64,000 nucleotides of DNA from Convolutriloba macropyga. Its lineage: Eukaryota. Where the stretch lies: assembly GCF_964194025.1 (NCBI RefSeq), contig NC_134469.1:3534001-3598000 (forward strand), written 5' to 3'. Within the stretch, counting starts at the first letter, position 1; every line of letters begins with the position of its first letter. The position numbers are program-made. Shown one piece after another: positions 36,301 through 42,902 of this stretch.

Positions 36301-38576
36301 CACACATAGGGAACTGGTATGGAAGGATTAAAACAAAAATGGAACATCAAGGAACAAGCAAAGGAATAAAGTTAAGTAGCCAAACACTCAGAGCAGCCTT
36401 CCCTCCTGCACGCCGGCGCTAATCGAAGTCTAACTGAGAACACGAGACGTGGGGGCGCGACATCCACTCAAGCAGAGATCACACCTCCTCAGAAATGCGA
36501 AGCTTGATTTCGTTCGGATGTAGCTTATAGGGGCATGGCTCTCCTCATTTTTGCTGAATTTGGTTGCAAGTTATTTTATAACGCGTTATGCTGATGGCCC
36601 GGCACCACCCGAGCAAGCAAAAGCAGTGCGGTGAAGCTGCTGTTTTCGTTTTTGCGGCCTCGCACGTCGTACTTACTTCGCTTGATGCTCTCCTGATATT
36701 TGTATGCATCTTTTATGGTCTTCGGGCAGCTCTTCGCATGAGGGTTCAAAATCTTCACATCGATGAAAGTTCGATTGAAACGAGAGCCCCACAGACTGTT
36801 TGCATTGATGTCCAGTCCAGTGTCATCATCAGTAAAAGTGGAATTACTCAAGAAAATTTCTCCATCGATTGAATGAAGTTTTTGCTCTATCTGCACATCA
36901 TGGCAAACGTCATCTATAAGGTTTGCAAACACTCTCTGATTTCGTTGTGTCGTAGTTGCATATATCCGCCTTTGGCGCAATGTAGGGCAAGGTGAGGCTA
37001 TATTTTTTCCCGCATGGTCGTATGACTGGCGTGTTTTTCGCTTCCCAGTTGTAGCGAAGTGCTATTCTATCACATAACTAAGTCTCGGTGAGGTCAAAAC
37101 CATGTTATGATAACGGAAGCGCGTTAAGCCAGTTAGTTGCTGCTTTGTCCGAGGCCAGCTGGATGGTATACTTCATTTCTGGTAAATTATTTTCGATTCT
37201 AGATATTTCAAGATGAATTCACGTTGCATGTCTGCTTTCTGTCTGAGACTGATCTTGCTTTTTTCTATATCAATTTGATGACTTTCGAATGAATCATTAC
37301 TCAATGACGCCAATGGACTCTAAGATCAATGACTCCAAGTTCAATTGATTGCTCCAGATATTTTGAAGATCTTGTGGGAGGGCGATGTTAGCCCACCCAT
37401 TGTGAGCGGGAGAGAAAAAATTCCTTTTCCTCTTGGATTGTTTCTTTGCCGATGATGTTCGGTTTGGCTTGGCCAAGCTGCTCCTCCACGTTGTCCAAAA
37501 CCCCATTCATAGACAGTGTAGCACACAAAAGGAAGCTCAACCTCTGTTCAACCACCTTCGTCAAACATGCATTGGCATTCTGGGGAGAGGTGAGAGCAAA
37601 TTGACCAAGTCTGTCAAATTTTTTGTGTATTTAATTTCTGCATCTTTCGGGAAACTTAAACTGCCCTCAAGGCTTCCGATAACTGTTCCCAGGACTCGAG
37701 CGCCCTACAAACACAGATCACGCTTGACTCTCGCCTCTTGGATTAATTTTTAACTGACACTTCGGCAAATTGACAAGATATCCGTACTTGGGACCAAGCT
37801 GAGTGAGCTTGTCCAAGAGTGGTCTTGTTATTAGGGGTAGGATTGCGATTCCATACATCGCCATCGCAAGGGGTTCACCTTGTGTCGTACTTTCCTGGAC
37901 CAGAATGGTCAACTTACCGATGTAGAGATAAGACGGGTGGCTACAGGAATTTTGTAAGGCAAAATGCAAAAAAGGGCATAATATTTTCAAGTTCTTTAAT
38001 GCTGTTCGTCTATTGAGCGCGTTAAATGCGTGTTTGGCATCAAATAGAGGAAACGCTTCGTTTTCGGGATCATCAAAACTGTGGCAAAGCGAATCTATAG
38101 CATGTTCTGTGACGCATTTCTGGCCCAAGCACAGCTGTATGTTTCCACCGAGGGAAGTTAAATCTTGCCTGATGCAGTCGACGATTATGCGTCCGGTGGT
38201 GTGACGCATTACTTCACCCATGCCAAAGGGTCTCACACCGTGACATTTATCCCGAGCCACTAGTTGACAACTATTGTATGCAATCAAATCATCCGGTGGT
38301 ATCATGGATGGCGATTTCTGTGCATAACAAAAAGAAATCTTCAAAACCTTCTCAAGAGGGATGCTTAGGTTTGGAGCAAAGTTGGAACAACTTTTCTCTC
38401 TTAAAAAAATTACAATCGAAAGGGCCTTGTACACCATCCGGCAACGATGGATAAAAGTCGGAAAATAGGGGATAATGAGTAGCACTTAGCCGAATGCTGC
38501 ACTCCAAGCTGTTCCATTCCAAACAATGTAAAGACGGCCCAGTCACAAAAATAATTAACAAGTGGTGAAGAAAGCA

Positions 38577-38632
<56 letters not shown>

Positions 38633-41600: not shown

Positions 41601-42902
41601 TCTACAGAACATGGTAGGTTTAAGAACATTTCTAAATGAGGGTGAAACAGTGAACAAATTTAAGGCACAAGAATCAACATAGTTACACAAAGCGTAGTTA
41701 AGGGCGCTGATTTTCTTTTTTATGAGGCCATTGCAGCTGGTGGGTATAATTTTGGGAACAATAAAATTATTTGGGCTAAATTTAACAATGATGAGCTGAA
41801 TGAGGAATTTCCAATGCTCTATAAAAGTTTCAATACTACAAAGGCGAGTCAATACTAATGTGATACTTCAATCATGAAAGCCAGCAATTACCACAACAGT
41901 GTTCAGCTTCTGATTTGAGTATTGATTGATGACATCACAGAGATCCAGCAGTTTAGCACCTCGATAGGAGTGAACACAATCCTGTACTTGACCCTCGTCT
42001 ACATATTTCGTACAAGAAGTACCCCAGACCAAGTCCGAGCAGCTGGAGGGAAGAGGGTTGGCATCAAGACGTCCCATTCACGGAGTCTGCTAACATTCAA
42101 AACACAAGAAATTGTTCTATAAATGTAATCAGTTAGAGTGATACGACCTGATGCGATGAAGGAAGATGGTTGGTATCAAAACATCCCATTCATGGAGCCT
42201 GCTGACGTTCAAAAGCACAAGAAATTGTTCTATAAATGAATTCAGTTAGAATGATAAGACCTGATGTGATGAGTCGGAGTGTGAGATTGGTGCACTCGCC
42301 TCTGGCTCGGGTGGCGTGGCTTGAAAAGGTGTAGGTTTGATTCAGACCAGCGCGCATACGTATTTGAACATACAGCGGAGGTAAATTTGTTCTCTAATAA
42401 GTTTATCACAAGCTATTAGGCTATTACCCTAGAATAACCCTAGAAATACAAAAACAAGGCCAAAGTAGAAAAATCCGGAAAAAGATTGTTTTTAAAGAAA
42501 TTGATAGCAGGTGTAAATAAAAGTTGTAAATAGCCTAAATATTGTATATTGGAAAAAAATTGATTTAATTGTTTAGAATGGTTCCTAGAATTGTTCTAAT
42601 GGTGGTGTCAGACAAATGTAAATACATATTCATTTTATCCTTCAGCAATTTGTGAAACAGTTTTAACCTGACGATGAACGTAAAGTTCGAAAACGTTTGT
42701 TTTAAATACCGGAAGTAATTTTAATTTGACAAATTGGTTTCTTTTACATCATATAACACATGTTTTAGCTGGTGGTTATCAACTGGCCGAGGTCCTTTTG
42801 TTTATTATGAATTGGTAGTTGTTGCTACATTTCTGTGCGGTTCATAAACGGTTCACGAGGGTTGATGAAATAGGTTTGCAATTCAGAACAAAAACAGTTT
42901 AT

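What the first reader, a model, noticed from the sequence alone, without database searches (positions are those of the whole stretch)
38422..42480. CRE-like RLE retrotransposon apparently carrying an SGNH-esterase ORF1 and an N-terminal PHD finger
Seen: on the minus strand an SGNH-hydrolase ORF (GTS, RGA, GFHD, ETVH blocks) stops at 41484, only about 40 bp before the ATG (41441) of a PHD-like + RT + CCHC + restriction-like-endonuclease ORF. I see no TSD, tail or compositional break between them. Established: esterase ORF1s and PHD fingers are known from APE-type LINEs (CR1, L2, RTEX), and an esterase domain from some Penelope elements; CRE-clade RLE elements are normally described without one. 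Inference: this could be an undescribed two-ORF chimeric architecture. The alternative is that the esterase belongs to the CR1/L2 LINE at 31040-33740 and the CRE copies sit inside it. That would require the N-terminal half of the APE domain upstream of 41441, and I cannot find it there.
Basis: partly seen in the sequence, partly recalled or inferred. Interest (0 to 1): 0.68.

Follow-up and report, generated by a model that had tools for sequence, protein, structure and literature searches.

The report
Restriction-endonuclease LINE with esterase first ORF
A dead copy of a jumping gene of the early-branching, restriction-like-endonuclease type seems to carry an extra esterase gene in front of its main gene, a combination so far described only for other kinds of retrotransposon.

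Summary
On the minus strand a ~197-codon SGNH-esterase ORF (42077-41487, one in-frame TGA) ends at TAG 41486-41484. A degenerate PHD-RT-CCHC/restriction-like-endonuclease ORF follows.

Other copies of the second ORF begin at window 41474, not 41441 (P0001, P0004). That leaves 9 nt between the ORFs, in the same frame. Esterase homology runs to the stop codon, so any element boundary must lie within about 12 nt.

Support for one two-ORF element:
- The esterase has its own repeat family at 60-78% identity, like ORF2 at 61-81%.
- P0025, from a more distant family, fuses an RLE piece (52% identity to the window's) to this esterase type.

The element and two 5'-truncated tandem copies abut the APE region of an old LINE, and 98 bp of LINE sequence is repeated between copies. 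The missing APE N-half is not found up to 44300.

I could not fetch any other genomic copy of the junction, so the architecture is probable (about 0.65), not proven. The 'CRE' label is untested. Novelty: new variant of a known kind. Interest is moderate.

The parts
42046..42272 (-). Two tandem ~113-bp monomers just upstream of ORF1 (presumed 5' UTR). The true 5' end of the element is not defined; the GC-richer stretch runs to about 42370.
   Evidence: Self-BLAST 42046-42159 vs 42158-42272, 87% identity. Another copy's ORF (P0012 aa 11-57 and 34-168) matches up to 42172 and 42215. Sequence read.
41484..42077 (-). ORF1: stand-alone SGNH-type esterase of about 197 codons, dead in this copy. It has an in-frame TGA at 41870-41868, block III reads GFHD instead of GFND, and block V reads ETVH instead of DGIH. 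Stop TAG at 41486-41484.
   Evidence: tblastn of P0008 aa 1-167 to 42077-41514 at 70% identity, and 19 of the 20 family proteins searched hit this ORF (P0025 by its esterase half). Fold evidence.
41475..41483 (-). 9-nt in-frame spacer between the ORF1 stop and the family's ORF2 start codon.
   Evidence: P0001 and P0004 aa 1 align to 41474. Sequence read; TAG position.
38772..41474 (-). ORF2 of copy C (about 1,020 codons when intact), degenerate. The start codon is GTG here. There are at least 5 frame changes, a loss of about 273 bp at 40622, and a premature TAG; the end point is approximate.
   Evidence: tblastn of P0001, P0002 and P0004; alignment at 40622; frame map and stop position by comparison with copy B.
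41292..41423 (-). PHD-type zinc finger at the ORF2 N-terminus. It is C4HC3 in P0001 and P0004; 4 of the 8 ligands are lost in the window copy.
   Evidence: Sequences. Pfam PHD on P0001 covers the whole profile (1-47/47) but at E 0.033, below the cut-off.
39970..40598 (-). Reverse-transcriptase core.
   Evidence: P0002 RVT_1 E 3e-10 over aa 303-499. P0002 aa 295-542 aligns to 40622-39970.
39021..39425 (-). CCHC knuckle (C-x-C-x7-H-x3-C, about 39368-39324) followed by a restriction-like endonuclease motif (RHNEIRD ... IEP ... LDI ... D-V-K). Copy C has G in place of the last Asp; copies A and B keep D-V-K.
   Evidence: Sequence; alignments. No profile or structure support; the motif assignment is recalled knowledge.
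38403..38771 (-). 3' UTR with an internal (TA)n at 38578-38643. It ends ...GATTGTAATTTTTTT with no poly(A).
   Evidence: Four-way alignment with copies A and B and the inverted fragment; coordinates.
38305..38402 (-). Junction j1: 98 bp of LINE (APE-region) sequence between copy C and copy B.
   Evidence: Alignment to the sequence that follows copy A and runs into the LINE. The motif TTTAAGAGAGAAAAGTT occurs with 0 mismatches 3 times, at 38405, 36082 and 33728.
36080..38304 (-). Copy B: 5'-truncated at about ORF2 aa 283. It is a hybrid: 99.5-100% identical to copy A up to the (TA)n and 100% identical to copy C after it.
   Evidence: Sliding identity.
35982..36079 (-). Junction j2, identical to j1.
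33726..35981 (-). Copy A: 5'-truncated at the same point as copy B, about 87% identical to copy C.
31040..33725 (-). Old, degenerate APE-type LINE (APE C-half and RT) that the array abuts. Its first ~70 bp are homologous to j1 and j2.
Evidence: ORFs. RVT_1 at E 1e-4 and 5e-4 on two pieces, both below the cut-off. The APE reading rests on motifs only (no Pfam or PDB hit).
43411..43819 (+). Inverted, heavily 5'-truncated fragment (about 405 bp of the 3' end) of a related copy. It marks the element's 3' end.
   Evidence: BLASTN 38404-38856 vs 43816-43411, 76% identity; 33727-33898 vs 43819-43644, 84%; alignments.

Best explanation
The locus holds one dead, near full-length copy (C) of a non-LTR retrotransposon with two ORFs. 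ORF1 is a short, stand-alone SGNH esterase. After a stop codon and a 9-nt in-frame spacer, ORF2 carries an N-terminal PHD finger, a reverse transcriptase, a CCHC knuckle and a C-terminal restriction-like endonuclease, with no APE domain.

Inferred mechanism:
- The element is transcribed from a 5' UTR with tandem monomers.
- ORF1p, by analogy with the ZfL2-1 esterase, helps RNP assembly or membrane association.
- ORF2 is translated by reinitiation or stop read-through.
- The PHD finger and the RLE choose and nick the target, and the RT copies the RNA by target-primed reverse transcription.

History of the locus (shown by sequence):
1. The element lies directly upstream of an older LINE that starts within its APE region.
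2. A segment running from about ORF2 aa 283 to 98 bp into the LINE was duplicated in tandem, giving C-j-A.
3. Much later, an unequal crossover at the (TA)n made the hybrid copy B.
For: 1. Tight junction. Esterase-family homology runs to the stop codon: P0011 and P0008 match to 41508-41514, and P0011's last 8 residues end at the same stop. ORF2-family homology starts at 41474. Nine nt separate them, in the same frame.
2. Matching divergence. In a scan of 1.84 billion representatives, the esterase piece has 21 hits at E<=0.001. One (P0016) I set aside as a low-complexity repeat. Six are at 60-78% identity and 14 at 30-47%. The ORF2 N-terminal piece has 7 hits among 514 candidates at 61-81% identity.
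3. P0025 (172 aa, another family). Its aa 13-108 match the window's RLE ORF at 52% identity, E 6e-32. Its aa 108-165 match the window's esterase at 38% identity, E 7e-12. Its aa 108-167 match P0013 at 67% identity, E 8e-27. So the same two modules are neighbours in the same orientation elsewhere.
4. Read-past ORFs. P0026 and P0017, and by cysteine pattern P0014, read past the esterase end in frame into a PHD-like stretch. P0026 aa 187-218 aligns with P0001 aa 24-57 at only 6.8 bits.
5. All 20 retained esterase relatives are 66-234 aa. Those with an intact start begin 14-45 aa before block I, unlike the coiled-coil-led esterase ORF1s of CR1/L2 (PMC3905857, passages).
6. P0004 shows the PHD finger and the start of the RT in one open frame without an APE domain.
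7. No APE N-half was found in three frames of 42250-44300.
Against: - No second genomic copy of the ORF1-ORF2 junction was seen. Collections with eukaryotic context were closed, and the listing of cluster members was off.
- No protein in the libraries spans esterase plus RT. This is expected if the stop is kept, but it gives no positive support.
- Composition differs somewhat: GC 0.387 and CpG o/e 0.5 for ORF1, against 0.456 and 0.99 for ORF2.
- The array really does touch a same-strand APE-type LINE, which is what the nested model predicts.
- The PHD-like tails of P0014, P0017 and P0026 are weak, and such fingers also start the ORF2 of some L2/CR1 elements (PMC4120745, passages).
- The RLE assignment rests on motifs only.
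Confidence: 0.65

Rival explanations
1. Nested insertion. The esterase is ORF1 of the same CR1/L2-like LINE whose APE C-half and RT lie at about 33725-31040. A single-ORF RLE element landed in its APE region and the insertion deleted the inter-ORF region and the APE N-half.
For: - Same strand and the right order of parts.
- The array's 3' flank is LINE APE-region sequence, and 98 bp of it is repeated between copies.
- Esterase GC (0.387) is nearer the LINE's (0.36) than ORF2's (0.456).
- Esterase ORF1s are known for CR1 and L2 elements (PMC3905857; PMC4120745).
Against: - The model needs a deletion of at least ~225 bp whose left end falls within 9-12 nt of the ORF1 stop, and an RLE element with practically no 5' UTR.
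- The APE N-half is absent up to 44300.
- The esterase has close relatives at 60-78% identity. The LINE's APE piece found none among 150 candidates in the 'longer' class (the 'near' class was not searched).
- It does not explain P0025.
- The ORF1 lacks the coiled-coil leader of CR1/L2 esterase ORF1s.
Confidence: 0.12
2. Recurrent site-specific insertion. A single-ORF RLE element targets the sequence just after the esterase ORF of another repeat, so the junction recurs without the esterase being part of the RLE element's RNA.
For: - RLE-type LINEs are mostly target-specific for repeated sequences, transposons included (PMC4640811, passages).
- This would mimic a conserved junction and similar copy numbers.
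Against: - The 3' flank here is mid-APE LINE sequence or unrelated DNA, not the continuation of an esterase-bearing host element.
- P0025 places the RLE upstream of the esterase. That fits head-to-tail two-ORF units or template switching within one RNA, not insertion downstream of the esterase.
- An ORF2 start 9 nt from the 5' end would leave no 5' UTR.
Confidence: 0.1
3. Locus-specific accident. An esterase-only repeat (or the relic of another element) and the RLE element were brought together here by the same rearrangements that made the tandem array.
For: - The locus is demonstrably rearranged: a tandem duplication, an unequal crossover and a ~273-bp deletion at 40622.
- ORF1 and ORF2 differ in composition.
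Against: - A chance join that leaves both family homologies complete, 9 nt apart and in frame is unlikely.
- P0025, and more weakly P0026, P0017 and P0014, show the association in other families.
Confidence: 0.08

Closest known systems
RLE-type (early-branching) LINEs: CRE, NeSL/Utopia, R2, R4/Dong and HERO clades
   Same: RT followed by a CCHC knuckle and a PD-(D/E)xK-like endonuclease at the C-terminus, with no APE. An N-terminal zinc-binding module precedes the RT. Insertion is presumably by target-primed reverse transcription.
   Different: - These clades are described as single-ORF elements (PMC3708506 Introduction, passage); here an esterase ORF precedes the RT ORF.
- The N-terminal module is a PHD-type C4HC3 finger rather than the ZF/Myb region described for the early-branching LINEs (PMC5678591, passage).
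- The clade was not assigned: no reference RTs were available, and there are no sequence hits to solved R2 proteins.
Esterase-type (type IV) ORF1 of CR1, L2 and RTEX LINEs (ZfL2-1 ORF1p, PDB 4c1b)
   Same: An SGNH-fold esterase encoded as the first ORF of a LINE, just upstream of the RT ORF. The catalytic blocks are kept in the family consensus.
   Different: - Those elements have an APE-RT ORF2, and their esterase is generally preceded by a coiled coil (PMC3905857) or a zinc finger/leucine zipper (PMC4120745). Here the ORF1 is the esterase alone.
- Block I reads GTS.
- The 21 sequence hits in 1.84 billion representatives are all short ORFs except the spurious P0016.
- 4c1b was not among the 45 Foldseek matches listed, which run to rank 50.
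GDSL esterase ORFs of Penelope-like (Athena) and bdelloid LTR (Vesta) retroelements
   Same: Another case of an SGNH/GDSL esterase captured as an accessory ORF by a retroelement class other than APE LINEs (PMC5408684, passages).
   Different: The backbone differs (GIY-YIG PLE, or LTR element with the esterase as ORF3), and so does the position. Relatedness of the esterases was not tested.
L2/CR1/Crack elements with a PHD finger at the start of ORF2
   Same: A PHD finger directly after the ORF1 stop and ORF2 start (L2 subgroup 5 in PMC4120745; Crack/CR1 in PMC3708506).
   Different: In those elements the PHD finger is followed by APE-RT. Here it is followed by about 240-320 aa without an APE, then RT, then CCHC/RLE.

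Membership tests
RLE-type LINE (R2/CRE groups) | Non-LTR-type reverse transcriptase | tested here: met
   P0002 RVT_1 E 3e-10 (40.6 bits, cut-off 29.6). Window copies C, B and A align to P0002.
RLE-type LINE (R2/CRE groups) | CCHC knuckle plus PD-(D/E)xK restriction-like endonuclease C-terminal to the RT | tested here: inconclusive
   The motifs are present: C-x-C-x7-H-x3-C, RHNEIRD, IEP, LDI and D-V-K (in copies A and B). There is no Pfam hit, no PDB hit and no named Atlas cluster, and the AlphaFold model is unusable at pLDDT 34.
RLE-type LINE (R2/CRE groups) | No APE endonuclease N-terminal to the RT | tested here: met
   P0001, P0002 and P0004 cover the PHD finger to the RT with no endonuclease/exonuclease/phosphatase hit at E<=1. 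P0004 holds about 320 aa between the PHD finger and the RT.
RLE-type LINE (R2/CRE groups) | Single ORF (as the clades are described) | tested here: not met
   An esterase ORF ends 9 nt before the family's ORF2 start. This holds only if the esterase belongs to the element, which I put at about 0.65.
RLE-type LINE (R2/CRE groups) | Insertion into a specific repeated target | not testable with these tools
   Only this locus and one 405-bp fragment (43411-43819) are available, and their 3' flanks differ. No TSD was found.
CRE clade specifically | RT groups with CRE/SLACS/CZAR in a phylogeny | not testable with these tools
Esterase-ORF1 APE LINEs (CR1, L2, RTEX) | ORF2 with APE plus RT directly after the esterase ORF | tested here: not met
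   The ORF after the esterase is PHD-RT-CCHC/RLE. No APE N-half was found in 41200-44300.
Esterase-ORF1 APE LINEs (CR1, L2, RTEX) | Esterase preceded by a coiled coil or zinc finger/leucine zipper in ORF1p | tested here: not met
   ORF1 starts 14-45 aa before block I in the window copy and in P0008, P0013, P0015, P0020, P0021 and P0027. The feature is taken from PMC3905857 and PMC4120745.
SGNH/GDSL hydrolase | SGNH alpha/beta fold | tested here: met
   Model of P0013 with pLDDT 82.6 and pTM 0.82. There are 86 PDB matches at E<=0.001, with PAF-AH and GDSL lipases on top.
SGNH/GDSL hydrolase | Catalytic Ser (block I), Gly (II), Asn (III), Asp/His (V) | tested here: met
   The family consensus reads GTS, HSYRGA, AGFND and DGIHFS. 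The window copy itself fails: it has GFHD followed by a stop, and ETVH. Pfam scores are below the cut-off, and there is no PDB sequence hit with profile A3.
PHD finger | C4HC3 ligand pattern | tested here: inconclusive
   The pattern is complete in P0001 and P0004. Pfam PHD gives E 0.033, 14.7 bits against a cut-off of 24, though it covers the full profile. The window copy keeps 4 of 8 ligands.

The most novel reading that the evidence does not exclude
A so far undescribed lineage of restriction-like-endonuclease LINEs, present in several animal genomes as at least three diverged subfamilies. These elements have acquired a minimal, leaderless SGNH esterase as ORF1 and a PHD finger at the start of ORF2. 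The two ORFs are kept in the same frame across a single stop codon, so ORF2 may be made by read-through or reinitiation. This would extend esterase capture to the earliest-branching LINE group.
Probability: 0.55. Interest if true: 0.6.

Novelty: new variant of a known kind. Interest (0 to 1): 0.5.

Why it matters
Esterase ORF1s are known from CR1, L2 and RTEX LINEs, Penelope-like elements and bdelloid LTR elements. They are a textbook example of module exchange between retroelements. The RLE-bearing LINEs are described as single-ORF elements.

An RLE LINE with an esterase ORF1 would show three things:
- ORF1 acquisition is not tied to the APE-type backbone.
- A minimal esterase, without a multimerisation leader, exists and would be useful for asking what the esterase does in retrotransposition.
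- A new domain combination (esterase, PHD, RT, RLE) would enter the survey of RLE retrotransposons, which are now being mined for genome engineering (PMC13580325, passage).

The copy in this window is dead and has no function of its own.

Tried and rejected
- Pfam on 13 window ORF pieces gave nothing significant except weak RVT_1 on two LINE pieces.
- PDB sequence searches found nothing useful with the LINE APE piece, esterase profile A3, P0002 or the RLE piece.
- The 'longer' protein search with the LINE APE piece gave 0 hits among 150 candidates. With esterase profile A3 it gave 0 among 7,999 scored. So no fused esterase-APE-RT or esterase-RT-RLE protein was found; this is weak evidence, neutral between the models.
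- The Atlas search on the RLE piece returned only unnamed clusters.
- The AlphaFold model of the RLE piece from a 3-row alignment had pLDDT 34. I discarded it and ran no fold search on it.
- An Rfam search of 30000-45000 at E<=1 gave only (TA)n-driven microRNA-like noise and no ribozyme.
- No APE N-half was found in three frames of 42250-44300.
- A TSD search with the 3'-flank motif found only the three known sites at 0 mismatches.
- P0016 (1,282 aa, 19 stretches) was rejected as a low-complexity repeat.
- Composition did not discriminate between the models.
- Literature searches found no description of an esterase ORF in an RLE LINE.
- Not available: Kapitonov & Jurka 2003 is not held; Kapitonov et al. 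2009 was not among the 8 of 268 papers listed, and I did not ask for it by id; Repbase Reports were not searched for.
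Full report
**What is at the site**

All features below are on the minus strand.
- An esterase-like frame is open from 42077 to 41487. It is interrupted once by an in-frame TGA at 41870-41868, directly after 'GFHD', and closed by TAG 41486-41484.
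- The ATG at 41441 exists.
- What follows is not one ORF. It is at least seven open pieces in three frames.

**The esterase is a real SGNH-type ORF and a repeat family**

The window pieces hit no Pfam family. A scan of 1.84 billion representative proteins with the 127-aa piece gave 21 proteins at E<=0.001:
- one, P0016, is a 1,282-aa low-complexity repeat that I set aside;
- six (P0008, P0009, P0010, P0011, P0012, P0015) are 60-78% identical and are other copies of the same family;
- fourteen are 30-47% identical.

All 20 retained proteins are 66-234 aa. Their consensus is LVIGTSRTKY..HSYRGA..AGFNDH..PKTI..DGIHFS.

Evidence for the fold:
- A model of P0013 built on alignment A3 is confident (pLDDT 82.6).
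- It matches SGNH hydrolases in the PDB: 86 matches at E<=0.001, with PAF-acetylhydrolase and GDSL lipases on top at TM 0.6-0.74.
- Atlas features agree (GDSL-lipase clusters at 0.95).
- Sequence-level support is weak: Lipase_GDSL_2 at E 0.02 on P0021, and no PDB hit with the profile.

Members with an intact start begin only 14-45 aa before block I. The ORF is therefore the esterase alone.

The window copy is dead. It has the TGA, an Asn-to-His change in block III and an Asp-to-Glu change in block V.

**The second ORF**

The 179-aa piece 41155-40619 found 7 proteins among 514 candidates in the 'longer' class, at 61-81% identity. They establish the following.
- P0001 and P0004 begin MQPSQLLARSLMADQTHCPLCKG... 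and carry a complete C4HC3 pattern. Pfam PHD gives only E 0.033, although it covers the whole profile.
- P0004 runs in one frame from this finger into the start of the RT.
- P0002 has RVT_1 at E 3e-10.
- No APE-like domain lies between the finger and the RT.

Mapped on the window, P0001 aa 1 sits at 41474, where the window has GTG. The spacer after the esterase stop is therefore 9 nt, and the two ORFs share a frame.

Copy C lacks P0002 aa 204-294 at 40622. It has at least five frame changes and a premature TAG near the end.

Downstream of the RT lie a C-x-C-x7-H-x3-C knuckle and the string RHNEIRD...IEP...LDI...D-V-K. The D-V-K is intact in copies A and B and reads G-V-K in C. I read this as a restriction-like endonuclease from recalled motif knowledge. 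Nothing confirmed it: Pfam, PDB sequence search, Atlas and an AlphaFold attempt (pLDDT 34) all gave nothing.

**The surroundings**

Three copies stand head to tail:
- C, from 42215 or beyond down to about 38403;
- B, 38304-36080;
- A, 35981-33726.

B and A start at about ORF2 aa 283.

An inverted 405-bp 3' fragment at 43411-43819 fixes the element's 3' end at ...GATTGTAATTTTTTT, about 38403.

Between C and B, and again between B and A, lie 98 bp. These are homologous, with one 28-bp gap, to the sequence that follows copy A. That sequence runs in frame into the APE-like C-half and RT of an old LINE. RVT_1 on the LINE is only E 1e-4 and 5e-4, and the APE call is motif-based.

Sliding identity shows that B equals A (99.5-100%) up to the (TA)n and equals C (100%) after it, while C and A are about 87% alike.

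The simplest history has two steps:
1. An old tandem duplication of the segment running from about ORF2 aa 283 to 98 bp into the LINE.
2. A recent unequal crossover at the (TA)n, which created B.

**Does the esterase belong to the LINE or to the RLE element?**

Esterase-family homology reaches the stop codon, and ORF2-family homology starts 9 nt later. A boundary between two elements would therefore have to fall within about 12 nt. The RLE element would then have almost no 5' UTR, and the LINE would have lost its inter-ORF region and its APE N-half exactly there.

That N-half is not upstream either. Three-frame reading of 42250-44300 shows nothing APE-like, and no TSD was found.

Four further points favour a single two-ORF element.
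- The divergence of the window's esterase from its relatives (best 78%) matches that of ORF2 (best 81%). The LINE's APE piece found nothing among 150 candidates (the 'longer' class only).
- P0025 belongs to the P0013 subfamily. It joins an RLE segment (52% identity to the window's, E 6e-32) to this esterase type (67% identity to P0013, E 8e-27) in one open frame. Head-to-tail two-ORF units with a deletion, or a template switch within one kind of RNA, would give exactly this.
- P0026 and P0017, and by cysteine pattern P0014, read past the esterase end in frame into a PHD-like stretch. This is weak: 6.8 bits for P0026 against P0001.
- The tandem ~113-bp monomers just upstream of ORF1, shared with copy P0012, look like a LINE 5' UTR.

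Against this reading:
- I could not fetch a single other genomic junction.
- No library protein spans esterase and RT.
- ORF1 is poorer in GC and CpG than ORF2.
- PHD fingers also open the ORF2 of some L2/CR1 elements (PMC4120745).

I put the two-ORF element at about 0.65, nesting in the LINE at 0.12, recurrent site-specific insertion behind an esterase-bearing repeat at 0.10, and a locus-specific accident at 0.08.

**Comparison with what is known**

For every paper below I saw passages only, through the find mode.
- Esterase ORF1s are reported for CR1, RTEX and Penelope-like elements and are generally preceded by coiled coils (PMC3905857).
- Within the Jockey superfamily they occur only in vertebrate L2 subgroup 9 and CR1 subgroup 7 (PMC4120745).
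- They are reported in vertebrate CR1 and L2 (PMC13343379), and as ORF3 of bdelloid LTR elements and in Athena (PMC5408684).

Six searches found no paper that describes an esterase ORF in an RLE LINE. Three sources that could hold one were not checked:
- Repbase Reports, which I did not search for;
- Kapitonov et al. 2009, which was not among the 8 of 268 papers listed and which I did not ask for by id;
- the supplements of PMC3905857, which were closed.

Kapitonov & Jurka 2003 is not held.

The element works like an RLE LINE, and its ORF1 works like a type IV LINE ORF1. It fails the 'single ORF' description of the former and the 'APE-RT ORF2' and 'coiled-coil leader' features of the latter. 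The CRE label is untested.

**What stayed unchecked**

- Clade placement.
- Target preference.
- The organism.

The window is not taken for human.

**Verdict**

It is a new variant of a known kind, of moderate interest.

Noticed in passing
33726-38304 (-): Copy B is a recombinant. It is 99.5-100% identical to copy A up to the (TA)n microsatellite and 100% identical to copy C after it, which is the signature of an unequal crossover at the microsatellite.
   Followed up: yes
44268-47624 (+): An uninterrupted 1,117-codon ORF of the ZSWIM4-8 family: Pfam ZSWIM4-8_C at E 7.5e-55, and TPR_ZSWIM8 weak at E 9e-4. It is either an intronless gene or one very large exon next to the repeat cluster. It runs on the opposite strand to the elements.
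   Followed up: partly
42046-42272 (-): Two tandem ~113-bp monomers (87% identity) directly upstream of the esterase ORF, shared with another copy (P0012). They are reminiscent of monomeric LINE 5' UTRs.
   Followed up: partly
40622 (copy C) versus 38304 and 35981 (5' ends of B and A): The internal deletion in copy C resumes at ORF2 aa 295, only about 12 codons from the point (about aa 283) where copies B and A begin. The 3' part of C may itself be a truncated array unit, fused to a full-length 5' part by a deletion. This is unresolved.
   Followed up: partly
38305-38402 versus 33656-33725 (-): The LINE-derived junction keeps 28 bp (TCCC...ATTTC) that the LINE itself lacks at the matching place. 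So the LINE copy suffered a 28-bp deletion after the duplication, or the junction gained 28 bp.
   Followed up: no
P0014 and P0013 (fetched proteins): P0014 reads on where P0013 stops, after ...NQIK, and 29 codons later shows M-V-C-x2-W...C-x2-L...C, a possible decayed PHD start in the same frame. If so, ORF1 and ORF2 may be in frame in that subfamily too. This rests on the pattern only.
   Followed up: partly
57460-57659: A run of 200 N (assembly gap or mask), left untouched.
   Followed up: no
1-6000 and 20001-22000: Strong AT skew (-0.19 to -0.23, and +0.22) with higher GC (0.39-0.46) than the neighbouring sequence. These may be genes or other repeats; I did not examine them.
   Followed up: no
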